Notes under the pieces: model-generated | What the model saw: the letters and a program-made list of their open reading frames with translations, nothing else | What the model was told of the DNA's origin: nothing | Database searches by the model: none | Position numbers and translations under genes: made by a program | Part shown: positions 3,001-17,234 of the stretch, piece by piece | Numbering within the stretch: the stretch's first letter is position 1 | How the letters are laid out: the number at the start of each line of letters is the position of its first letter | Virus genome (UHGV): UHGV-1770886 | DNA: 17,434 nucleotides | DNA from: a virus | Reading direction: 5' to 3' (one strand)

Positions 3001-3096
3001 TGCACCATTCAGAAGGTTTTTGATACGGGGAATTTCATTTTTAAACTCTGCCGCATCAATCCCCAAATCAATGACCAGGTTGGCTATCTGGTCCAT
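31..3096 (-). CDS. H: tail tape measure protein (lambda gpH-like), 1021 aa from internal Met
   Basis: ORF track 31..3126. Start moved to ATG at 3096 (MDQIANLVIDLGIDAAEF, cf. lambda H MAEPVGDLVVDLSLDAARF), preceded by GGAGGT 8 nt upstream. C-terminus INNDGTNGQIGPAALKAVYD matches lambda H. Long Q/E/R/K-rich helical middle typical of tape measures. Confidence 0.9.
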   Translation of the reverse strand: MDQIANLVIDLGIDAAEFKNEIPRIKNLLNGAASDAERSSARMQRFMERQTQAARQTTQAASSAATAASVHAQTVEKNAQAHERMAREVEKTRQRMEALSQKMREEQAQAMALAEAQDKAAAAFYRQIDSVKQASAGLQELQRIQQQIRQARNSGGIGQQDYLALISEVTAKTRVLTQAEEEATRQKVAFIRQLKEQATRLNLSSSELLRAKAAQLGVSSAAEVYIRKMEQAGKATHSLGLKSAAARQEIGVLIGELARGNLGALRGSGITLANRAGWIDTLMSPKGMMLGGVIGGIAAAVYGLGKAWYDGQKEGEEFNRQLSLTGHYAGVTAGQLWTLSRAISGNGITQHAAAGALAQVVGSGAFRGNDIGMVARVAAQMERSVGQSVSDTINQFKRLKDDPVNAAKALDNELHFLTATQLEQIRVLGEQGRSSDAARIAMSALAEETGRRTADIDNNLNALGSTLKYLSDLWSRFWDAAMNIGREDSLDEQIAALQEKVSRAKRLPWTASSSQVEYDQQRLNDLQEKKRQKDLQDAKEQAERNYQEQQKRRNAENAALNRMNETEAARHQREIARINAMQYADQAVRDAAIQRENERYEKALASGKKKTRETRNDEATRLLLQYSQQQAQVEGQIAAARQSAGIATERMTEAHKQLLALQQRISDLDGKKLTADEKSVLARKDELIQALTLLDVKQQELQKQTALNELKKKTIQLTSQLAEEERAQRQQHDLDIATVGMGDQQRQRYQVQLSLRQKYQQQLEQLRRDSEQKGTYNTDDYRKAEQALTESLNRQLNENRRYWQQLEVVQGNWKNGVLRAFQDFTVDADNTAETAEQVFSSAFSNMGNGLATFVTTGKLNFKSFTSSVLSDMAKILAQATMMKSIKGIGSVLGFDLSSLSLNANGGIYQSADLSRYSGTVVNRPTFFAFAKGAGVMGEAGPEAILPLRRGADGKLGVVADIGGSGMAMFSPQYNIEINNDGTNGQIGPAALKAVYDLGKKAAADFMQQQARDGGRLSGAYR

Positions 3097-3418
3097 AACG
3101 CACACCTCCGGAAATACCTTCCCCAAGATGCATCAGTTCTTCGTCCGTTCGCTCCGGTATCCCGTTCTCTTCCGGTAAAAGGCTGAAATCAGCCACCGCA
3201 GCATCACTGCTGCCGGACACCATTCTCACGATCAATGCCTTCAGCGAGGCAAACTGCGCATCCATCCACACATCACTGAAGCTCTGCATCCGGAAATAAT
3301 CGCCCCACTCACCAAGCTCAGTGGCCGACATTTCCGACAGCATCCGCCGCCAGTCTGCCCGCCGGAACTCCCGGGCAAGCCGCATGACAAACTGCATTTC
3401 CCGCGTCAGGACTTTTCC
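3068..3418 (-). CDS. T: T-frame extension of the tail assembly chaperone (G-T fusion via programmed -1 frameshift)
   Basis: Open -1 frame continues from the end of G through 3068 and overlaps the H start by 29 nt, as in lambda G/T/H. Heptamer GGAAAAG (mRNA sense, plus 3412..3418) sits 2 codons before the G stop; lambda uses GGGAAAG at the equivalent place. Confidence 0.6.
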   Translation of the reverse strand, partial: GKVLTREMQFVMRLAREFRRADWRRMLSEMSATELGEWGDYFRMQSFSDVWMDAQFASLKALIVRMVSGSSDAAVADFSLLPEENGIPERTDEELMHLGEGISGGVRYGPDSQPGH

Positions 3419-3795
3419 GGCGTCAGCGCCTCATGCTCATCATCCACGGCATTATCAATGGCCCCCATACCGCTCAGCGACAGAACCATCTCCGCCCCCG
3501 CACCCAGGGCATCATACGACCATGTTGTAATAACGGATGCGCAAAGCGTCTCTACATCCTTAGACTGATCCGCATTCCACAGTGAGCGGGAAACCAGCCA
3601 GGCATTGATATCCATCCCCATCCGCAGAAAAGCAATCTGTCGTTCAGCCTCCGGCAGTTCTCCCTCCCCGGCATCAAACTTTGCCGTTCGCTGCTGAACA
3701 AACGTCAGATATTCAATTCTCTGCAGCCCGGACAGCTCACTGAGCACCACGGACTGTTTTTCATAATTAAACGTGTCCTGTTTCAGAAACATCAT
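3406..3795 (-). CDS. G: tail assembly chaperone (lambda gpG-like)
   Basis: MFLKQDTFNYEKQSVVLSELSGLQRIEYL aligns with lambda G MFLKTESFEHNGVTVTLSELSALQRIEHL. Position between V and H. Start ambiguous between tandem ATGs at 3795 and 3792; GGTGGAG lies upstream. Confidence 0.8.
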   Translation of the reverse strand: MMFLKQDTFNYEKQSVVLSELSGLQRIEYLTFVQQRTAKFDAGEGELPEAERQIAFLRMGMDINAWLVSRSLWNADQSKDVETLCASVITTWSYDALGAGAEMVLSLSGMGAIDNAVDDEHEALTPEKS

Positions 3796-5594: not shown

Positions 5595-5870
5595 TTACTC
5601 AATAAAGATCATTGGCTTACCGTTAAAACGTTCATGCCGTGTGACCGTCCATTGTTGTCCGTCATAAACAACGCGATCCCCGCGCCGTGGGCGGTATCCC
5701 GAAGAAAACACCACCAGAGAGACCGCAGGTCCGGACAGAGCATTCAGCTCTGCCAGTGTTTCTCCCGGGATCACAGTCATATCGACATCATTAATCGAGG
5801 CTGTCTTTCCCATCTTTCTGACCGTGATCGCATCCATACGCGCTGCCAGCCGGGAAAAGGGATCAGACAT
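5595..5870 (-). CDS. FII: head-tail joining protein (lambda gpFII-like)
   Basis: FSRLAARMDAITVRKMGKTASI and RPRRGDRVVYDGQQWTV parallel lambda FII FDAAIARADETIRGYMGTSATI and LRRGDTLTIGEENFWV. ATG overlaps the stop of the upstream gene (ATGTCTGA). Sits directly before Z. Confidence 0.65.
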   Translation of the reverse strand: MSDPFSRLAARMDAITVRKMGKTASINDVDMTVIPGETLAELNALSGPAVSLVVFSSGYRPRRGDRVVYDGQQWTVTRHERFNGKPMIFIE

Positions 5871-6186
5871 TGAGTTTTACCGGCACTTCTTCTGCACTGG
5901 TTCCGGCATCTGCCCAGACAACCCCGACCAGCGGCTCAGAGCCGCTGTTAGTCAGCTGAACTTTTCCTGACTTCAGATAAACCTTCTTACCCGTTTTCAT
6001 GTCATCCGTTTTCAGCTTAGGCAGCATAAACACACCTTCGGTTATGCCGTCGCCTGTTTCTCCCTGTGGAATATCGGTCAGCGCCACCGCAAAAACATCC
6101 CCCACCTGCACCAGATCTCCGCTGCTGATGGCTGCACTGGCAACAATCGCCACCGTTTTTCCTTCTTCTACAAAATTCTTTGCCAT
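5863..6186 (-). CDS. small head-associated protein, DUF2190-like (occupies the lambda FI/decoration position)
   Basis: From ATG 6186 (MAKNFVEEGKTVAIVASAAISSGDLVQVGDV...), GGAGA 5 nt upstream. About 107 aa, Gly/Val-rich, immediately downstream of the capsid ORF. Family assignment is from memory of the DUF2190 N-terminal pattern and is not verified. Confidence 0.5.
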   Translation of the reverse strand: MAKNFVEEGKTVAIVASAAISSGDLVQVGDVFAVALTDIPQGETGDGITEGVFMLPKLKTDDMKTGKKVYLKSGKVQLTNSGSEPLVGVVWADAGTSAEEVPVKLNV

Positions 6187-6272: not shown

Positions 6273-8231
6273 TTACGCCGTACATTTCACCAGGCCGCGG
6301 TGATCAACTGGCGCAACACCAGCGTCAATACGCACTTTCGTTGTCACGCCATCCACACTGAAGCCCTCCATCTGATCAATATATGGCGTATCCACACCGT
6401 TGAGATAAGCCACTTCAATCGTATCGGAGCCTTTGGACGCAGCCAGGTAGAAGGTGGTCTGGCTGTTATCATCAAGACGAGGCTCTGCAATAACGGTCGC
6501 AAAATCTTTCACCGGGTTAATAATACCGGCGTTAATGTCAGCCCCCTTGACACTTGAGGAGCGAATGACCTGGTTAGCAACAGACTCCATCGCCGTCGGT
6601 ACCAGTACGAACGCAGGACGAATATTCAGATGACGCTCACCCTCTTTCTGAACGCGCATCAACTGGCGGGCTTTATCCAGCGATGCCACGTCCATTGCCG
6701 CGCTCTCCAGTACGTTTGCATGTTTCGCTTTATCGAACAGACTTACATTATCTGTGGAGATTTTCGGGTTAGACGTCAGAATGGCATAAACCAGATCGGC
6801 AATAGTGGATTTCGCCGCACGGCCCAGCTTCATCGGGACATCGGTCAGCATATTCAGATCATCATTGATAATGGCCTGACGGGTGATACTGAACAGCTCG
6901 CCATAGGTCGCCAGTGCAATAGTGGCCTGTTTATCTCCGGTGGTGACGTATTTATATTCTGCCCCTTCACGCACCTGACGCAGAGCACTGAAGCCCCCCA
7001 TACCCACACGATGGGCAATTTTAAAATCAGACAACTGACCTTTCCGCGTCCACTGTTCATAGGTTTCAGGGGCATCTTCCCAGCCCTGCAGAATGGCTTT
7101 GTTCGCAACATCCAGCAGAATATTACCGAAGTCAGACGTACTGTGTGTGAACGCCGCACCGACCATCTGCATCGGGTTATAACTGGAAACACCAATACCA
7201 CGTTCAGTCAGTGACATACGGGCATATTCACGCAGGGTCATCCCGTTGTAGACATTATCACGTTCAGTTTTTTCAAACCCGGCGCGCGCCATCAGCGCCT
7301 GGCGGATCCCGTCCCCCACAAAATTACCGTTACCGGCATAAATATGAGCCGGGGTATTTTTATTGGATGGCGTGGACTCGCGCCCCATCTCGTTCAACAG
7401 CTTTTCGCGGGCCTGCTCCAGCGAACATTCAGGATCGGCAAGACACTGAGCCTGCAACGACTGATAACGCCCGCCAAACATGGCAAACAGATCATTAATA
7501 CCGTTTACACGCGCTTTTTGCTCTGCCAGGACCTGCGCACGGATGCTGTTTTCATCCACCACGGGTGCTGCTGCCTGCACTGGCGTCCGGGAGGCTGCAG
7601 GTCCATCATCCTGTACGCGTGGAGCACTGTTGCGTGGCGGAGTAATCATATTTCGAATGGATTCCGGCATCTTTTTAAATTCCTCTGTACGTTTTGACTG
7701 AATACATGCCATTGCCTTAACGGCTGGTGTCACCTGATCAGCAAATCCCTGTGCCAGACATTCGGCACCGGACATCCAGGTCTCATCCGCCAGCATGGCA
7801 GCAATTTCATCGGTGGTTTTCCCGGTTTTCTGTGCATAAGCGGGTAACAGAACCGCCTCAACTTTATCGAGCAGGTCGGCATAGGTGCGCATGTCCTCCG
7901 CATCACCGCCCGTAAAGCCAAATGGTTTATGAATCATCATGAAGGAGTTTTCCGGCATAATGACCGGGTTTCCCACCATCGCAATGACCGACGCCATTGA
8001 CGCCGCCACACCGTCGACATAAACGGTAATGGACGCACCATGTGTTTTCAGTGCATTAAAAATGGCGATGCCTTCAAAGACATCGCCACCCGGTGAATTA
8101 ATATGGAGATTAATGTGGGTGATATCGCCCAGTGCATTCAGATCACTGATAAACTGCTTCGCCGTAACACCCCAGAAACCAATCTCGTCATAAATATAAA
8201 TATCCGCGTCACTCTGGTGACCTGCCTGCAT
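6273..8231 (-). CDS. prohead protease (ClpP/S14-like) - linker/scaffold-like - major capsid protein in one ORF
   Basis: One uninterrupted frame of 652 codons from ATG 8231 (13 nt after the portal stop). N-terminal ~200 aa look ClpP-like (DIYIYDEIGFWG ... INSPGGDVFEGIAIFNAL ... GVAASMASVIAM ... MMIHKP). A helical Q/E/R-rich linker follows. The C-terminal ~350 aa are of capsid size and position. Upstream track residues 1-87 rejected because they overlap the portal gene. Confidence 0.75.
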   Translation of the reverse strand: MQAGHQSDADIYIYDEIGFWGVTAKQFISDLNALGDITHINLHINSPGGDVFEGIAIFNALKTHGASITVYVDGVAASMASVIAMVGNPVIMPENSFMMIHKPFGFTGGDAEDMRTYADLLDKVEAVLLPAYAQKTGKTTDEIAAMLADETWMSGAECLAQGFADQVTPAVKAMACIQSKRTEEFKKMPESIRNMITPPRNSAPRVQDDGPAASRTPVQAAAPVVDENSIRAQVLAEQKARVNGINDLFAMFGGRYQSLQAQCLADPECSLEQAREKLLNEMGRESTPSNKNTPAHIYAGNGNFVGDGIRQALMARAGFEKTERDNVYNGMTLREYARMSLTERGIGVSSYNPMQMVGAAFTHSTSDFGNILLDVANKAILQGWEDAPETYEQWTRKGQLSDFKIAHRVGMGGFSALRQVREGAEYKYVTTGDKQATIALATYGELFSITRQAIINDDLNMLTDVPMKLGRAAKSTIADLVYAILTSNPKISTDNVSLFDKAKHANVLESAAMDVASLDKARQLMRVQKEGERHLNIRPAFVLVPTAMESVANQVIRSSSVKGADINAGIINPVKDFATVIAEPRLDDNSQTTFYLAASKGSDTIEVAYLNGVDTPYIDQMEGFSVDGVTTKVRIDAGVAPVDHRGLVKCTA

Positions 8232-8244
8232 CCTGAACCAGGAA

Positions 8245-9753
8245 TTATTCTTCGGACTGGTCGTCGGTGTGCTGCGGCTCCTGTCGTTTCGTTGCGGCAC
8301 TGCTGCCTCCTTTATCACTGGCCGGATCGGTATCAAATACCAGATCCAGCTTGCGGTTTTCATCAATTTCGGCCTTGCGCCGACGTTTGACATCATCTGG
8401 ATTACGACCACCTGCACGTACCCAGTCTGATTCTGTCGCCGCTCCACCACGAATCTGAATTTTCCAGGCCTCAGCCTCCTTAACAGGGTCAATCCACGGC
8501 ATCACCGGTCCGGAATACACCGCGGTATACAGTGAAGAACGATCAAGATCGCGGGGTAGCCTGATAACACCGGATGCCACAGCCTGTTTCAGCCAGGCAC
8601 GATACATCGGGCGGGTGACGGCACCAATAAACCAGTCCTGCAGGATCAGGTAGCCATCAGTGGATTCAACCAGCTCCTGACGCTGGGCGCTGTAAGTGCC
8701 GTTATAGTTGCGCGCTGTACTGGAAAAACTCAGACGACTGCCCGCCGCCACGGCACGCAACTGACCATTACGAAAAGTTTCAAGATTAGGATTGGGGCGA
8801 TCCGACTTCACCATTCCGATTTCTTCGCCGGGTTTCAGATCGTCGTAAATAATGCCTGGCTGAATGGTAAGCTCGCGTTCCTTATCCTTGCTGCCATTAC
8901 CATCCGGTTCATAGCTCTGCCCGTCGCCTTTCCGGATGTACATCCCCAGAGCAGCGGCGATCCTTGCTGCAGTCAGCTCAGAATCTTCATACTCTTTCAG
9001 GGCACTGAGGCGGATCAGCACACCGGACAACAAAGACGTCCCGCGCATCTGGTGCAGACGGCGAACAAATTTAAGATGCAGCATTCGCTCTGCATCCACT
9101 TCTTTGGTTTCCATCTGCCGTCCGGATACGGGACGGCTTTTATACACCAGATATTTTTCGGGACGCCCCCAGTCATCAACAAACACGCCCTGATTCAGCC
9201 TGTTGCTCTCATCACTGGTCATGGGAATAAAGTCCGGCTCGAGCGCCTCCAGCCAGAAATGAACACCGGCAGAAGGCGTCAGGCTGTTTATGCGCCCGGA
9301 AACCATCTGGGCAAACACCTCACCATCGCGCAGCCAGGTACGCAACATCAGACGTTCCAGCATCGGACGGGTAAACTGCCCGGTGACTTCCGGACTGACA
9401 GACCATTCACTCCATCGGGTGCGTATCTCCGCTGCCAGATCACGGGCAATGGCCCCATTGCGTAATACCGGATGTGGCTCGACAATAATCCCGTTTTTCC
9501 CCACCACCCGTTCTTCCAGCTTGTCAAATACACCAATGACCAGATCGTGGTTGTTATCAAGGTAACGGGCCTGCTCACGTAACGACACGGCCCCGTACTG
9601 GCTTAACTGGTCGGCAGTTCGGTTTTCCCGCCGGGCTTTGTGTGTCCGCGTCGTTTTTACGGCCTCATAAGCCTGGATCACCGCACGGGAACGCAGCCTT
9701 GCCGCTTTCCATCCTGGTGAAAAAACGCCAATCACATCATCAAGAATTGCCAT
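8245..9753 (-). CDS. portal protein
   Basis: 502 aa from ATG 9753, which overlaps the gpW stop (ATGA). Size and position (after terminase and W, before protease/capsid) match lambda gpB. Not aligned residue-by-residue to lambda B. Confidence 0.8.
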   Translation of the reverse strand: MAILDDVIGVFSPGWKAARLRSRAVIQAYEAVKTTRTHKARRENRTADQLSQYGAVSLREQARYLDNNHDLVIGVFDKLEERVVGKNGIIVEPHPVLRNGAIARDLAAEIRTRWSEWSVSPEVTGQFTRPMLERLMLRTWLRDGEVFAQMVSGRINSLTPSAGVHFWLEALEPDFIPMTSDESNRLNQGVFVDDWGRPEKYLVYKSRPVSGRQMETKEVDAERMLHLKFVRRLHQMRGTSLLSGVLIRLSALKEYEDSELTAARIAAALGMYIRKGDGQSYEPDGNGSKDKERELTIQPGIIYDDLKPGEEIGMVKSDRPNPNLETFRNGQLRAVAAGSRLSFSSTARNYNGTYSAQRQELVESTDGYLILQDWFIGAVTRPMYRAWLKQAVASGVIRLPRDLDRSSLYTAVYSGPVMPWIDPVKEAEAWKIQIRGGAATESDWVRAGGRNPDDVKRRRKAEIDENRKLDLVFDTDPASDKGGSSAATKRQEPQHTDDQSEE

Positions 9754-12775: not shown

Positions 12776-13107
12776 CCTGACAACCGTGACGAGCATCTGA
12801 AACAGAGCGTTACATAATGGCATGGGGATAATTCAGAAGGACATCACAGCATGCCCACACAAATTAGTGTGAGTGTCCTGTTTCTTACTACGCGCAGGAC
12901 TGACGAGCATGAGGGGAAAATACGCGAACCGAAATGCCTTATCTTCAGAAATGCAGCCGGCATCCGAACTGGACGATATTGTAAATTCACCTAAATACGA
13001 GGCATTGCTGTAGTTGAATTGCAGTACTGTATTAGCCTTACAGTGACAGAATACGATATTGACTCTGTCACTTGTGAAATGGTCAGAATGGTTAGCAGTT
13101 ATGGTGA

Positions 13108-13314
13108 TCAGTCAACCACCAGGGAATAATCCTTCGTATTCTTATCGTGCTTTACTAACGCGGCCTCAATTGCCCTGAATGCTTCCAGAGATACTTGATG
13201 TTCTATACATGCAATTACAACATCCGGGTAACCCATCGAAATGGTGCTATTAAGCATAGTTTTTACACGAACCTGCTCCTGGGAGGGGGCATCAGTGTAT
13301 TGATCTTTATGCAT
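13108..13314 (-). CDS. small conserved lambdoid hypothetical protein (68 aa)
   Basis: ATG 13314 with GGAG 8 nt upstream. Protein ...[53 protein letters not shown] recall a near-identical 68-aa ORF near the right end of lambda, but could not verify this. Confidence 0.5.
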
Positions 13315-13510
13315 TTTGTCGCTCCATTCGTTTGCTCTTCACTTGCGGCTAAAAATATAACGTCAAATCACTCAGCATGAAAGAGTGAAAGTTTCAGCGC
13401 GTTTCCCTTACATAATCTGTCGTTTGTATTCTCTTCAGGCATACCGGAAAGACTAGGTATTGTCACACAACCAATACCATTGACAATCGAGATTTATATC
13501 TATTCGGTAA

Positions 13511-13546
13511 TGTTTAAATATAACAAAACCCCGTAAAAACGAGGTT
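13511..13546 (-). terminator. putative rho-independent terminator downstream of the gns-like gene
   Basis: Minus-strand AACCTCG-TTTTTA-CGGGGTT (7-bp stem with one G.U) followed by a U-rich run (TTGTTATATTT). Confidence 0.4.
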
Positions 13547-13609
13547 TATGGGTAATTTGTATTGTTGAATAGCATCTGATGAGAAATTGATGCTAATACT
13601 ATAAACATG

Positions 13610-13783
13610 CTAGATTAAATCAATCTTGATATCATAGCTTTCAAGACCAGTCATTTTTTCCCGTGCAGTAAACTGGATACTGGTAACTTCTTTCCCGGTC
13701 TTTTTCTTAAGCTCAATGATTTTTTTTGTTATATATTCAGAAATATCTGCTTCTGTTTTTGTTTTTAACTCTTCAATGTTCAT
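13610..13783 (-). CDS. gnsB: GnsA/GnsB-family small protein (57 aa)
   Basis: MNIEELKTKTEADISEYITKKIIELKKKTGKEVTSIQFTAREKMTGLESYDIKIDLI matches my recollection of E. coli GnsA/GnsB in length and motifs. AGAGGAA upstream; second of two tandem ATGs chosen for spacing. Symbol gnsB is from Qin-prophage-like synteny and is not verified. Confidence 0.55.
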   Translation of the reverse strand: MNIEELKTKTEADISEYITKKIIELKKKTGKEVTSIQFTAREKMTGLESYDIKIDLI

Positions 13784-13955
13784 CATTTCCTCTTTTAGTC
13801 TGTTATGACTGTCCTGGTACACAGTAGTGTCAATTATATGGAGCAAACGTATAAAAGATAAGATGAAACATCGCAATAATCAACATACGACGGTCTAAAT
13901 TTCACACAAACAGATAAAGATGATTATCATTTATTATCAATGCATTAGAATCAAA

Positions 13956-14186
13956 TCAATTCAAGAGTCTCATTGCTGCTTCCAGAATTTCTTCTGAAGT
14001 TACATGTCGATCCGCTGCTACATAAATGACTTTATGATCTCCGGTCAGAGATGGAAACCCTGCAGCCATTACAGTGAGGTGTGTTGTTTCGCCATTTGGA
14101 TATTCACGCATGATGGTGTTAACTCCGGTCATCACTGGCACTACCATTGCTGGTTCAGAGTTAAAAAAAACTATTATTTTTTTCAT
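13956..14186 (-). CDS. hypothetical small protein (76 aa from ATG; track gives an 89-aa GTG-initiated version)
   Basis: ORF track 13956..14225. The GTG start at 14225 would sit inside the terminator U-tract, so ATG 14186 (MKKIIVFFNSEPAMVVPVMTGVNTIM...) is preferred despite a weak SD. AT-rich. No family recognised. Confidence 0.35.
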   Translation of the reverse strand: MKKIIVFFNSEPAMVVPVMTGVNTIMREYPNGETTHLTVMAAGFPSLTGDHKVIYVAADRHVTSEEILEAAMRLLN

Positions 14187-14230
14187 AATGTTACCGTAAT
14201 ATGTGAGTATCCATCGACTAGACACTAAGC

Positions 14231-14250
14231 AAAAAAGCTCCCGAAGGAGC
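14231..14250 (-). terminator. putative rho-independent terminator downstream of the csp gene
   Basis: Minus-strand GCTCC-TTCG-GGAGC (5-bp GC-rich stem, tetraloop) followed immediately by TTTTTT (plus-strand AAAAAA at 14231..14236). Confidence 0.5.
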
Positions 14251-14457
14251 CTTCATTTTCACTTTCTTAAATCTAACGACAGATGGCTAACATTTAAGTA
14301 TTGTGAAATATTATCAAATGTAATCATCATTGATTTACAAAAGATACATTTTGCCCCGAAAGGATTTCTGTCAGAAACATCAAAAGATGATGTTCTATAC
14401 TGAGAACCATGGCAACACGGGCATCTAAAGTGAATATGGTTTGTAATATTTTCTACC

Positions 14458-14670
14458 TCAAAGTGCCACTACATGAACAGCTGCAGGGCCTTTAGGTCCG
14501 TTCTCAATACCAAATTCGACTTCCTGATTCTCAGTTAACGTTTTGAAATCGTTGCTCTGAATAGCTGAGAAATGCACAAACACATCTTTGCTACCATCTT
14601 TCGGCGTGATGAAACCAAAACCTTTTTCAGGGTTAAACCATTTCACTAAACCAGTCATTTTGTTAGACAT
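14458..14670 (-). CDS. cspI: CspA-family cold-shock protein (70 aa)
   Basis: [38 protein letters not shown]... carries the canonical RNP1/RNP2 cold-shock-domain motifs (KGFGFI, VFVHF). AAGG SD and csp-like leader (AAAGGTAATAA ATG). Paralog call cspI rests on synteny (csp next to Rz) and recalled sequence. Confidence 0.85.
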
Positions 14671-14814
14671 CATTATTACCTTTTGAAGAAGTTAGCCCTT
14701 GGGCAGAATGGTCCGAAAAAAAATATCAGAGAGAAAAACCAACAAGGAAATCTCAAGAGGTACAAATAATAAAATTATAACAATGACTGCTTCAGATAAT
14801 TTTGTAACAAACCA

Positions 14815-14850
14815 GAACACCATTAACGCATGATTAACCAACCATAGCAA
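14815..14850 (-). promoter_or_regulatory. candidate sigma70 promoter for the csp gene with ~145-nt leader
   Basis: Minus-strand TTGCTA (plus 14845..14850), 17-nt spacer, GTTAAT (plus 14822..14827), resembling the cspA promoter (TTGCAT / CTTAAT). AT-rich UP-like sequence upstream. Sequence inspection only. Confidence 0.3.
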
Positions 14851-15033
14851 GGATTACTTTTGTAAAGAAAAACACACGAATGAAACAATAGCTTTATTTA
14901 TTAATAAAACGTGTCATTCTGTCTAATGACCTTTTATCTTACCCTTAAGATTTCAAGGATTTTGACTCATGGAAGAGTCCTTTTTATTTAAATTTCACAT
15001 TCAGCGCTAAAAATAATCCGATTTAATATTAAT

Positions 15034-16061
<1,028 letters not shown>

Positions 16062-16195
16062 GGATATTTATCAGGATTTATCGGTTTCTGAACCCTGGAT
16101 ATGTTAAGCATTCAGCCCGTCAGTGGTAGGACACTGGCGCTCTGGTTAAGGATTATGGGGGATGCTGGCTGAGCTACCCCATCTGAGGATTTGAT

Positions 16196-16435
16196 ATGCA
16201 AAAAGAAGTTTTTATCAATATTACAGCTGACTGCTCATCTCCTGCATCAACAGCAAAAGAAATTGAAGCTCTTAAATATATGATTACAGTAATATTTTCC
16301 GTATTGGACCAGAATGAAAAAAATGGAATCATTCATCAATTAAATGAACATGTAAATAATCCATATATCAAAAGCAATCTGGAAATGCTGCTACCAATGA
16401 AAGATATTGGAAAACCAACTGAAACAAAAGGCTAA
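16196..16435 (+). CDS. hypothetical 79-aa protein on the opposite strand; AT-rich cargo ORF inserted between YdfR-like gene and endolysin
   Basis: ATG 16196 with GAGGAT 7 nt upstream. Markedly AT-rich relative to flanking phage genes. Stop overlaps the stop of the convergent minus-strand ORF. A hairpin CGCGCC-N10-GGCGCG follows at 16482..16503. No family recognised. Confidence 0.45.
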   Translation: MQKEVFINITADCSSPASTAKEIEALKYMITVIFSVLDQNEKNGIIHQLNEHVNNPYIKSNLEMLLPMKDIGKPTETKG

Positions 16436-16746
16436 CAACCAGTAATCGAGTTATCTGAACTGTTAATTTTTATGGTATACCGCGCCTCTGAACAGGGGCG
16501 CGTTTCTGGCAACAGCTCGTCCCCTTCACATAACCCGGCAGCAACATCCAGGAAGACCTGTCTGATGCTCCTTCTGGCTGCAGCCTCATAAAACTCCAGC
16601 GCGGCACCTTCAACACGGTCCAGCGAGATGTCCAGGTCAAAAATTTCACCGTCAAAGCGTTCTTTGTCCTGTAATGCTAAAGTTACCGTAACTTTATTCT
16701 CAAAATTGCGGATCCCTTTCACAATCAGTTCATAGTTTTGAGTCAT
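16432..16746 (-). CDS. hypothetical protein, YdfR-like (between holin and endolysin)
   Basis: 104 aa. ATG 16746 with GGAGAG upstream, 4 nt after the holin stop. Same position and size as the ydfR gene between essQ and rrrQ in the K-12 Qin prophage, as I recall it. Sequence similarity not verified. Confidence 0.5.
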   Translation of the reverse strand: MTQNYELIVKGIRNFENKVTVTLALQDKERFDGEIFDLDISLDRVEGAALEFYEAAARRSIRQVFLDVAAGLCEGDELLPETRPCSEARYTIKINSSDNSITGC

Positions 16747-16750
16747 TGAA

Positions 16751-16966
16751 TTACTCTCCCCGTGCCGCCTTACGACGGTCCTCTCTGATTTTGAAATACA
16801 GGTTAGTCAGATATGTCAGCAGCCCAAACAGCAGACTCCCCAGCACGCCTATTGCCGCCCACTGAGACGGGGAAACCCTGTCCAGCAACTGCAGGAACCA
16901 GTAGCCCGTTCCCACCGCTGACGTGGTGTATGACACACCTGTTGTGATTTTTTCCATCTGGTCCAT
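16751..16966 (-). CDS. S: class II pinholin, phage 21 S-like, with dual start (antiholin/holin)
   Basis: 71 aa from ATG 16966: [71 protein letters not shown], near-identical in the C-terminal two-thirds to recalled S21. Met1 and Met4 (MDQM) mirror the S21 71/68 dual start. GGGAGA upstream. The track's 106-aa N-terminal extension would run through the upstream terminator. Confidence 0.85.
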
Positions 16967-16993
16967 ACCCCGTCTCCCGTTATCCGGAAGCTG

Positions 16994-17032
16994 AAAACAA
17001 TAAAAAAGCCACCAGTTAACTACTGATGGCTC
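16994..17032 (-). terminator. rho-independent terminator immediately upstream of the holin (tR'-like late terminator)
   Basis: Minus-strand AGCCATCAG-TAGTTAA-CTGGTGGCT (9-bp stem including one G.U, 7-nt loop) followed by TTTTTTATTGTTTT, about 30 nt before the holin SD. Confidence 0.6.
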
Positions 17033-17234
17033 TGATAACTCATGCAAGCGTCTCAGACGACCCACTGACACTACCGGTGAGTTTAACGATACCTTCCATT
17101 TGACTGGCTCACTTTTTATGATGATGCCGGTGCATTTATCTCCAGCGCCAGACTTTCTATCTCAACGCCATACGTTACATTTTTGGTAATATCCATCAGC
17201 GTCAGTGCATTTAGTCCCACTGCCAGACTGTCTT

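What the first reader, a model, noticed from the sequence alone, without database searches (positions are those of the whole stretch)
6273..8231. Prohead protease, scaffold-like linker and major capsid encoded as one 652-codon ORF; mosaic head module
Lambda encodes C, Nu3, D and E separately. Here a ClpP-like protease domain, a helical linker and a capsid-sized C-terminal domain share one uninterrupted frame, followed by a small DUF2190-like gene instead of lambda D/FI, and then a lambda-like FII. The head module is therefore of a different lineage from the otherwise lambda-like terminase/W/portal and tail genes, and the capsid must be liberated by autoproteolysis.
Basis: partly seen in the sequence, partly recalled or inferred. 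Interest (0 to 1): 0.55.

Follow-up and report, generated by a model that had tools for sequence, protein, structure and literature searches.

The report
Fused protease–scaffold–capsid phage gene (Gifsy-2 type)
One long prophage gene encodes the head-maturation protease, a scaffold-like linker and the major capsid protein as a single chain; this is real, but it is a named family already studied in Salmonella phage Gifsy-2 and found in about 40% of complete E. coli genomes.

Summary
On the minus strand, 6273..8231 is an uninterrupted 652-codon frame. It has an N-terminal ClpP-like domain, a linker of about 130 residues and a C-terminal capsid domain. An AlphaFold2 model of that capsid domain (pLDDT 94) matches HK97-fold capsids.

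It is not new. The protein scores 984 bits (cutoff 475) on NCBIfam NF045540, [quoted passage not shown]. The gene is 100% identical in DNA to phage mEp460_ev081 and the protein is 70% identical to the Gifsy-2 "tripartite capsid gene" product (Effantin et al. 2010). It is 56% identical to Pseudomonas phage MD8 gp5, described in print as protease, scaffold and MCP in one gene. It occurs in 2125 of 5426 complete E. coli genomes.

- The start is probably GTG 8300 (AAGGAGG, 5-nt spacer), giving 675 aa as in RefSeq. Gifsy-2 and MD8 have Ile where this window has the ATG-8231 Met.
- There is no mosaic joint at portal|protease. Terminase, adaptor, portal, fusion gene, decoration gene and head-closure gene are all Gifsy-2-type. 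Only tail genes Z and U approach lambda, at about 50% identity.
- The "FII-like" gene belongs to Pfam PF13856 (PDB 2PP6), not to the lambda FII family.

Autoproteolytic release of the capsid protein is inferred, not shown here.

The parts
6273..8300 (-). Probable full coding sequence of the protease-scaffold-capsid fusion protein. It is 675 aa (73.4 kDa) from GTG 8300, with the stop codon at 6273-6275.
   Evidence: ORF. RefSeq WP_001136588.1 has the same coordinates in E. coli S88. NF045540 scores 984 bits against a cutoff of 475. phrog_133 covers residues 15-675.
6273..8231 (-). Most GenBank phage records use this start.
   Evidence: There is no SD before this ATG. The aligned residue is Ile in Gifsy-2 and MD8.
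8306..8312 (-). Shine-Dalgarno AAGGAGG, 5 nt upstream of GTG 8300, lying inside the 3' end of the portal gene.
7716..8258 (-). ClpP-like (MEROPS S14-type) head-maturation protease domain, residues ~15-195 of the 675-aa form. Ser101 (7998-8000) and His124 (7929-7931) align with the ClpP nucleophile and base. Invariant Glu173 (7782-7784) aligns with the ClpP Asp.
   Evidence: Pfam CLP_protease 4.6e-36 and NF045542 'head maturation protease, ClpP-related' at 217 bits. PDB ClpP hits down to 8e-16 with alignments. Invariant columns. Codon positions.
7335..7715 (-). Linker, residues 196-322. It has a conserved segment containing invariant Met211-Pro212, a variable Pro/Ala/Gln-rich hinge (222-248), a conserved predicted three-helix segment (249-306), and a variable stretch (307-322) where the maturation cleavage is presumed to fall.
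   Evidence: No Pfam family matches it. It is the least conserved segment, at 50% identity to Gifsy-2, but still shows a coding pattern. Helices at 250-307 are the only part of the full-length model with pLDDT 59-83. NF045541 covers linker plus capsid, residues 197-649. Linker-plus-capsid proteins without a ClpP-like domain exist.
6276..7334 (-). Major capsid protein domain with the HK97 fold, residues 323-675, about 38 kDa.
   Evidence: PF25209 6e-55 and PF10124 3.7e-08. The AF2 model of residues 333-675 has pLDDT 94.4 and pTM 0.89. Foldseek finds 387 PDB matches at E <= 1e-3, the 50 listed all HK97-fold capsids or encapsulin-type shells, with HK97 2ft1 at 2e-10. It is 84% identical to Gifsy-2.
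5863..6186 (-). 107-aa head decoration / cement protein gene (DUF2190, Phage_cement_2). It occupies the position of lambda D.
   Evidence: PF09956 2.7e-20. phrog_122 'head decoration' 1e-46. It is 61% identical to Gifsy-2 STM1034 and has no match to lambda D.
5595..5870 (-). 91-aa protein at the FII position, probably head closure or head-tail joining, of the Gifsy-2 STM1035 family.
   Evidence: PF13856 1.8e-17, with the FII family PF05354 only at 0.0018, below its cutoff. PDB 2PP6 at 1e-19. It is 45% identical to STM1035 and has no match to lambda FII.
8245..9753 (-). Portal protein gene (lambda-family portal fold, Gifsy-2 lineage). Its 3' end overlaps the probable start of the fusion gene.
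   Evidence: PF05136 5.7e-82 and TIGR01539. It is 64% identical to the Gifsy-2 portal and 23% to lambda B.

Best explanation
This is the head gene of an mEp460/Gifsy-2-type lambdoid prophage. One polypeptide of probably 675 aa carries three parts: a ClpP-like serine protease domain, a largely helical scaffold-like linker, and an HK97-fold major capsid protein domain.

Proposed mechanism, with the status of each step:
- Shown here: all three parts are translated in one frame, and each part is under purifying selection.
- Inferred from Gifsy-2, HK97 and lambda: subunits co-assemble on the portal into a T=7 procapsid, with the N-terminal protease and linker portions facing the interior. Each capsid subunit thereby brings in its own scaffold and protease.
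- Inferred: once enclosed, the protease domains cleave the chains. They remove roughly the first 305-322 residues (about 35 kDa) and digest them, leaving a mature capsid protein of about 38-40 kDa.
- Inferred: the shell expands during DNA packaging. Trimers of the downstream 107-aa DUF2190 cement protein then bind the three-fold sites, as lambda gpD does.

The gene is an ordinary, widespread member of an already named and experimentally studied family.
For: - Family membership: NF045540 scores 984 bits against a cutoff of 475 over profile positions 2-651 of 652. phrog_133 scores 1200 bits.
- Identity to known phages: 100% DNA identity to mEp460_ev081, and 98-99% to mEp460, cdtI, Ayreon and Tritos.
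- Relatives: 70% protein identity to the Gifsy-2 gene, with a fully syntenic module. 56% identity to Pseudomonas phage MD8 gp5.
[quoted passage not shown] 2010)'. PMC8538268 lists Gifsy-2 among phages with a trimeric cement protein at three-fold axes. PMC8814770 lists it as T=7. PMC8508860 argues that protease, scaffold and MCP are one gene in MD8.
- Protease: Ser101 and His124 are invariant and align with the ClpP Ser and His.
- Capsid fold: AF2 model at pLDDT 94.4 with Foldseek hits to HK97-fold capsids.
- One frame under selection: the third-position excess holds in all three segments.
- No alternative genes: only three genes lie between the portal and gpZ, so there is no other MCP, scaffold or protease candidate.
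- Prevalence: 2125 of 5426 complete E. coli genomes carry it.
Against: - No processing data were generated here. The cleavage site, the order of the steps and the cis or trans nature of cleavage are all inferred.
- The primary Gifsy-2 paper could not be read. Its content is taken from its title, from citing papers and from my memory of the abstract.
- The full-length AF2 model was unusable at pLDDT 35.7. The fold of the protease domain and of the linker therefore rests on sequence profiles and on weak secondary-structure prediction.
- The residue aligned with the ClpP catalytic Asp is Glu173. The neighbouring Asp172 is not conserved; it is Lys in Gifsy-2 and Glu in MD8. The third triad member is therefore uncertain.
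Confidence: 0.93

Rival explanations
1. The fusion protein is not the only product. An internal start at the invariant Met211 (ATG 7668-7670) would also give a ~50.6-kDa scaffold-capsid protein without the protease domain, much as lambda Nu3 is made from within gene C. Procapsids would then contain few protease copies. This would refine the main explanation rather than replace it.
For: - Met211-Pro212 is invariant from E. coli to Pseudomonas phages.
- A GAGG or AGGAG motif lies 10-11 nt upstream of it in the window, in Gifsy-2 and in MD8.
- Lambda sets the precedent with nu3 nested in C.
- Relatives exist that consist of the linker plus the capsid domain only.
Against: - The purine-rich motif is encoded by conserved Glu-Glu or Gln-Glu codons, so its conservation may only reflect the protein sequence.
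- The spacing is long for a Shine-Dalgarno sequence.
- The scan found only 4-nt SD matches at internal starts, against 7 nt at GTG 8300.
- There are no expression data.
Confidence: 0.12
2. The long ORF is an artefact. A sequencing or assembly error, or a recent frameshift or stop-loss, has joined separate protease and capsid genes.
For: Most phages with a ClpP-like head protease encode it as a separate gene. More than 1500 phage records match only the protease part.
Against: - The same uninterrupted ORF is in 1988 complete E. coli genomes and in 74 phage records.
- Among 50%-identity cluster representatives, most of the 150 best capsid-domain matches are 600-800 aa long.
- Two curated NCBIfam models exist for the fusion.
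- The coding-type substitution pattern continues through the linker.
Confidence: 0.01
3. The ClpP-like domain is catalytically dead and serves only as an internal scaffold or core. In that case a host protease processes the capsid protein, or it is not processed at all.
For: The residue aligned with the ClpP catalytic Asp is Glu, and the adjacent Asp172 is not conserved. The protein scores far below every bona fide ClpP equivalog cutoff.
Against: - Ser101 (in the motif AASMAS) and His124 (in MIHKP) are invariant in all 30 aligned homologs.
- Glu173 is also invariant and could act as the acid.
- NF045542 'head maturation protease, ClpP-related' matches at 217 bits against a cutoff of 120.
- Standalone homologs serve as the head protease in many phages.
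Confidence: 0.03

Closest known systems
Salmonella phage Gifsy-2 'tripartite capsid gene' (STM1034.3n, 696 aa; Effantin et al. 2010, Virology 402:355)
   Same: It is an ortholog, 70% identical over residues 18-674, with the same ClpP-like / linker / capsid order. The neighbourhood is also the same: TerS, TerL, adaptor, portal, fusion gene, 107-aa DUF2190 gene, PF13856 gene, then Z, U, V, G, T and H.
   Different: The domains diverge unevenly: protease 58%, linker 50% and capsid 84% identity. Gifsy-2 has a longer N-terminus and an 8-residue insertion just before the capsid domain. This window's tail genes Z and U are slightly closer to lambda than to Gifsy-2.
Escherichia phages mEp460, mEp460_ev081, cdtI, Ayreon and Tritos (lambdoid siphoviruses)
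   Same: The gene is essentially the same, at 98.3-100% DNA identity. About 12.6 kb of the window, from terminase to tape measure, is collinear at 97-99% identity.
   Different: Nothing of substance differs in the gene itself. GenBank names for it are inconsistent: 'Major head protein', 'protease/scaffold protein', 'head-tail preconnector protein Nu3' and 'head maturation protease'. The window region 12.6-17.4 kb (lysis genes and morons) matches other phages better.
Pseudomonas phage MD8 gp5 and F10-like phages (PMC8508860)
   Same: The three-in-one architecture is the same, at 56% identity, and a head decoration gene follows it. The paper proposes the same protease-scaffold-MCP reading.
   Different: The host genus differs and the hinge is more divergent. 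MD8 has a separate annotated FI-like gene in its module.
Phage HK97 gp4/gp5 (separate S78 protease; delta-domain scaffold fused to the MCP)
   Same: Both have the HK97 capsid fold. In both, the scaffold function is carried as an N-terminal extension of the capsid protein and is removed by a phage protease. This comparison rests on established knowledge summarised in PMC8508860.
   Different: In HK97 the protease is a separate gene of an unrelated fold (S78). HK97 stabilises its shell by covalent cross-links, not by a cement protein. Crosslinking residues were not examined here.
Phage lambda C/Nu3, D and E
   Same: Both are lambdoid, with the same gene order and a T=7 head carrying a trimeric decoration protein. 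Lambda also fuses the protease with the scaffold, since Nu3 lies in frame within C.
   Different: The lambda protease is S49, not ClpP-like S14. The lambda capsid protein is a separate gene of a different sequence family. BLASTP finds no match between the fusion protein and lambda C or E, nor between the cement protein and D.

Membership tests
NCBIfam NF045540 (ClpP-like prohead protease/major capsid protein fusion protein) | Whole-protein score above the curated cutoff, with end-to-end profile coverage | tested here: met
   984 bits against a cutoff of 475. Residues 9-651 align with profile positions 2-651 of 652.
NCBIfam NF045540 (ClpP-like prohead protease/major capsid protein fusion protein) | N-terminal ClpP-related head-maturation protease domain with the Ser and His catalytic residues | tested here: met
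   NF045542 scores 217 bits against a cutoff of 120, and Pfam CLP_protease gives 4.6e-36. Ser101 and His124 are invariant and align with ClpP. The acid position is Glu173.
NCBIfam NF045540 (ClpP-like prohead protease/major capsid protein fusion protein) | C-terminal major capsid protein domain with the HK97 fold | tested here: met
   PF25209 gives 6e-55. The AF2 model has pLDDT 94.4. Foldseek gives probability 1.0 to HK97 and other capsids.
NCBIfam NF045540 (ClpP-like prohead protease/major capsid protein fusion protein) | Proteolytic maturation that releases the capsid protein | not testable with these tools
   This needs virion or procapsid protein analysis. It is inferred from the Gifsy-2 literature.
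Gifsy-2-type head module | Orthology of the fusion gene and of its neighbours, in the same order | tested here: met
   Identity to Gifsy-2 is 70% for the fusion protein, 70% for TerL, 64% for the portal, 61% for the cement protein, 45% for STM1035 and 48% each for TerS and the adaptor, all in the same order.
Gifsy-2-type head module | T=7 capsid decorated by trimers at the three-fold axes | not testable with these tools
   This is reported for Gifsy-2 in citing papers. No particle data exist for this prophage.
Lambda-type head genes (C/Nu3, D, E, FII) | S49 protease (gpC), gpE-family capsid protein, gpD decoration protein and FII head-closure protein | tested here: not met
   No Pfam S49, gpE or gpD family match was found. 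BLASTP finds no match to lambda C, D, E or FII at E <= 1. The FII family reaches only 19 bits against a cutoff of 26.
Bona fide ClpP (ATP-dependent Clp protease proteolytic subunit) | Score above the ClpP equivalog cutoffs | tested here: not met
   TIGR00493 scores 60 bits against a cutoff of 308.6, and NF001368 scores 79 against 249. The protein has a ClpP-like fold only and is not a cellular ClpP, despite many 'Clp protease ClpP' database names.
HK97-type head genes (separate S78 protease plus delta-domain MCP) | Protease of the S78 family encoded as its own gene | tested here: not met
   No Peptidase_S78 match was found in this protein or its neighbours. Some relatives of the capsid domain do carry an S78 domain, but fused to the capsid protein.

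The most novel reading that the evidence does not exclude
The most novel reading left open has two parts.

First, the linker-capsid module of this family has been joined independently to three unrelated protease folds. These are ClpP-like S14 (this gene), HK97-type S78 and lambda-C-type S49.

Second, within the ClpP-fused genes, a conserved internal start at Met211 may set the protease-to-capsid ratio, as Nu3 within C does in lambda.

If both hold, this family would be a natural system for asking why and how phages fuse or split protease, scaffold and coat. Neither point is specific to this window.
Probability: 0.12. Interest if true: 0.35.

Novelty: already known. Interest (0 to 1): 0.1.

Why it matters
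It matters little as a discovery. The architecture has a curated NCBI family name and a cryo-EM study in Gifsy-2. It has a published bioinformatic description in Pseudomonas phage MD8, and it is present in roughly two fifths of complete E. coli genomes.

The practical value is for annotation:
- The gene should be read as the major capsid protein precursor. GenBank names such as 'Clp protease ClpP' and 'Nu3' are misleading.
- Its start is probably GTG 8300.
- The 107-aa neighbour is the head decoration protein.
- The 91-aa neighbour is a head-closure or head-tail joining protein. RefSeq calls it a 'DNA breaking-rejoining protein', and the PDB and Pfam name for its family is 'ATP-binding sugar transporter'.

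No high-resolution structure of this capsid lineage was found in the PDB by sequence search, so a structure of an mEp460-type head would fill a small gap.

Tried and rejected
- **Full-length structure prediction.** AF2 on the 675-aa protein with 23 close homologs (>=75% identity) failed, at pLDDT 35.7. I did not use it, apart from noting the helical segment at 250-307. The capsid domain with a 129-sequence diverse alignment then worked.
- **PDB sequence search.** It gave only ClpP hits for the N-terminus. For the capsid domain it gave a weak match to a Mu GpT-domain capsid, 8rkc at 2e-4. The cement protein matched nothing.
- **Reading Effantin et al. 2010.** The paper is not held. Several combined literature searches returned nothing useful.
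- **Sequencing-artefact explanation.** Considered and rejected.
- **Genes on the opposite strand or overlapping ORFs inside 6273-8390.** Considered and rejected, because none has a Pfam match.
- **A lambda-type GGGAAAG slippery site at the G/T junction.** None lies at the end of gene G. I did not pursue this.
- **A strong internal ribosome-binding site after the protease domain.** Only weak 4-nt matches were found.
Full report
**1. Observation**

All long genes in the window lie on the minus strand. The ORF overlapping the finding runs 6273..8492.

- Pfam places a CLP_protease domain at residues 23-168 (E = 4.6e-36).
- Pfam places a Phage_capsid_4 domain at residues 354-649 (E = 6e-55), with a secondary Mu-like gpT match.
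- Nothing matches the stretch between them.

The description is therefore correct. ORFs on the opposite strand, and one in another frame of the coding strand, have no family match.

**2. What it is**

NCBIfam identifies the protein end to end as NF045540, [quoted passage not shown]. It scores 984 bits against a cutoff of 475, over profile positions 2-651 of 652. PHROGs gives phrog_133 at 1200 bits.

- The DNA is 100% identical to Escherichia phage mEp460_ev081.
- It is 98-99% identical to mEp460, cdtI, Ayreon, Tritos and others, and about 77% identical to several Stx-converting phages.
- About 12.6 kb of the window is collinear with the left arm of mEp460-type genomes.
- The gene is present in 2125 of 5426 complete E. 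coli genomes. RefSeq gives it the fusion-protein name there.
- At the protein level, 74 phage records hold it over at least 80% of its length. These include Klebsiella, Providencia, Salmonella (Fels-1 and Gifsy-2) and 31 Pseudomonas phages.

**3. The experimentally studied relative**

The Gifsy-2 gene STM1034.3n (696 aa) is 70% identical over residues 18-674. The surrounding genes are orthologous and in the same order.

The primary paper is Effantin et al. [quoted passage not shown] It is not held in the library, but citing papers confirm its content:

- Gifsy-2 has a trimeric protein at each three-fold axis, as lambda does (PMC8538268).
- It is listed as T=7 (PMC8814770).

From my memory of the abstract (not a tool result), that paper describes a ClpP-like N-terminus, a central domain of about 200 residues with a possible scaffolding role, and a C-terminal MCP.

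Independently, PMC8508860 argues that protease, scaffold and MCP are encoded by the single gene 5 of Pseudomonas phage MD8. That protein is 56% identical to this one.

**4.

*Capsid fold.* A full-length AF2 run with only close homologs failed at pLDDT 35.7. I then searched the capsid domain against 1.84 billion cluster representatives. That gave 10,639 relatives at E <= 1e-3. I aligned 128 of them, at 39-59% identity to the query. The resulting model of residues 333-675 has pLDDT 94.4 and pTM 0.89. Foldseek against the PDB returns 387 matches at E <= 1e-3. The 50 listed are all HK97-fold capsids or encapsulin-type shells, among them HK97 Head II, phage D3, T5, SaPI1 and mycobacteriophage Adjutor. 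The refutation condition "no capsid fold" is not met.

*Protease.* Ser101 (AASMAS) and His124 (MIHKP), in 675-aa numbering, align with the ClpP nucleophile and base. Both are invariant in all 30 aligned homologs. The residue aligned with the ClpP Asp is an invariant Glu173. The adjacent Asp172 varies.

*Frameshift or stop.* Thousands of independent sequences carry the intact frame. Against Gifsy-2, differences at codon positions 1, 2 and 3 are:

| Segment | Position 1 | Position 2 | Position 3 |
|---|---|---|---|
| Protease | 0.30 | 0.23 | 0.57 |
| Linker | 0.32 | 0.33 | 0.54 |
| Capsid | 0.13 | 0.09 | 0.45 |

All three segments are therefore translated in this frame.

**5.

*(a) The start codon.* ATG 8231 lacks a Shine-Dalgarno sequence. 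GTG 8300 has AAGGAGG with a 5-nt spacer.

- In Gifsy-2 and MD8 the residue aligned with this Met is Ile.
- The upstream motif NSW(F/Y) is conserved in protein.
- phrog_133 aligns from residue 15 of the 675-aa form. Protease-only PHROG families, phrog_1684 and phrog_2976, align from residues 7 and 16.
- RefSeq annotates 675 aa.

The gene is probably 6273..8300, overlapping the portal gene by 56 nt.

*(b) The mosaic claim.* Identities to Gifsy-2 and lambda are as follows:

| Protein | Identity to Gifsy-2 | Identity to lambda |
|---|---|---|
| TerL | 70% | 24.6% (A) |
| Portal | 64% | 23% (B) |
| Z | 42% | 49% |
| U | 52% | 54% |

The small terminase (DUF1441), the W-position adaptor, the fusion protein, the cement protein and the FII-position protein match only Gifsy-2. 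The packaging and head genes therefore form one co-inherited Gifsy-2-type block, with no junction at portal|protease. V is 69% identical to Gifsy-2; it was not compared with lambda V, which was cut off in the fetched region.

*(c) The 'FII-like' gene.* It belongs to PF13856 and matches PDB 2PP6 at 1e-19. The FII profile is below its threshold.

*(d) Lambda Nu3.* It is nested in frame in C. Lambda therefore already fuses protease and scaffold. This gene adds the coat protein to that arrangement.

**6. Mechanism**

Shown here: one frame, three conserved segments, intact Ser and His, an HK97 fold, a downstream decoration-family gene, and no other MCP, scaffold or protease candidate between the portal and gpZ.

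Inferred by analogy with Gifsy-2, HK97 and lambda:
- The ~73-kDa precursor assembles on the portal with its N-terminal ~35 kDa inside the shell.
- The enclosed protease domains cut away and digest the protease and linker portion. The cut probably falls within the variable stretch at residues 307-322, just before the conserved GNGNF block.
- The ~38-40-kDa shell protein expands on packaging.
- DUF2190 trimers then cement the three-fold sites.

The linker has a variable Pro/Ala/Gln hinge at residues 222-248 and a conserved predicted three-helix segment at 249-306. It also travels with the capsid domain in relatives that lack the ClpP-like domain. Both facts fit a delta-domain-like scaffold role.

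**7. Context noticed while building the alignment**

Among the 150 closest cluster representatives of the capsid domain, 82 carry a ClpP-like N-domain detectable with this protein's protease domain. A Pfam scan of ten of the remaining 68 showed:
- an S78 (HK97-type) protease domain in five;
- an S49 (lambda C-type) protease domain in two;
- no Pfam protease match in three, namely one 642-aa protein and two of 443-471 aa that have only a ~100-170-residue N-terminal extension.

NCBIfam's second model, NF045541, matches residues 197-649 of this protein, which is the linker plus the capsid domain. Fusion of a protease to this capsid lineage is thus recurrent.

An invariant Met211 preceded by a GAGG or AGGAG motif raises an untested possibility of Nu3-like internal initiation.

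**8. Verdict**

The feature is real and correctly recognised in outline, but it is already known, common and named. Interest is low. The useful output is a corrected annotation: the start codon, the module boundaries and the roles of the neighbouring genes.

Noticed in passing
window 8298-8312 (-): GTG 8300, with an AAGGAGG Shine-Dalgarno sequence 5 nt upstream, is the likely true start of the fusion gene (675 aa). It overlaps the last 56 nt of the portal gene. Most GenBank phage records annotate the ATG at 8231 instead, while RefSeq uses the GTG.
   Followed up: yes
window 7782-7787 (-), residues 172-173 of the 675-aa form: The residue aligned with the ClpP catalytic Asp is an invariant Glu (E173). 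The neighbouring Asp172 is Lys in Gifsy-2 and Glu in MD8. The protease may therefore use a Ser-His-Glu triad or only a dyad.
   Followed up: partly
window 7668-7690 (-), Met211: Met211-Pro212 in the linker is invariant. A GAGG or AGGAG motif lies 10-11 nt upstream of it in this window, in Gifsy-2 (L002) and in Pseudomonas phage MD8 (L003). This could be a Nu3-like internal start, but conserved Glu codons confound the signal.
   Followed up: partly
proteins P0141, P0142, P0147, P0179, P0199 (S78); P0191, P0238 (S49); P0131, P0139 (no protease): Close relatives of the capsid domain (42-57% identity) are fused to different protease families. Some carry HK97-type S78, some carry lambda-C-type S49, and some carry only a short N-terminal extension. 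Protease-capsid fusion is therefore recurrent in this capsid lineage.
   Followed up: partly
window 13000-15000 (GC 31-41% against ~53% elsewhere): A low-GC island lies between the lysis genes and the terminase. It carries a cold-shock-domain protein (14458..14673, -) and a GnsA/GnsB-family protein (13610..13876, -). These look like moron or cargo genes, as seen in other E. coli lambdoid prophages.
   Followed up: partly
window 15034-17071 (-): This is a lysis cassette. It has a P21-type holin S (16751..17071), a DUF1327 protein (16432..16746), a phage lysozyme (15528..16061) and a DUF2514 protein (15034..15531), which is probably spanin-like.
   Followed up: partly
window 5595-5870 (-): The 91-aa protein at the FII position carries misleading names in public records. 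RefSeq calls it a 'DNA breaking-rejoining protein', and PDB 2PP6 and Pfam PF13856 name the family 'ATP-binding sugar transporter'. Its position and a weak FII-profile hit point to a head-closure or head-tail joining role.
   Followed up: partly
window 3068-3792 (-): The tail chaperone pair G (3406..3792) and T (3068..3397) is arranged as in lambda. However, no canonical GGGAAAG slippery heptamer lies at the end of G; the sequence there is CCGGAAAAGTCCTGA. The frameshift site was not worked out.
   Followed up: no
database proteins P0006, P0009, P0033, P0061, P0079: Several database 'proteins' join this fusion protein to terminase, portal, tape-measure or tail-fibre domains, giving products of 800-1135 aa. 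These look like assembly or gene-calling chimeras. They could mislead automated domain-architecture surveys.
   Followed up: no
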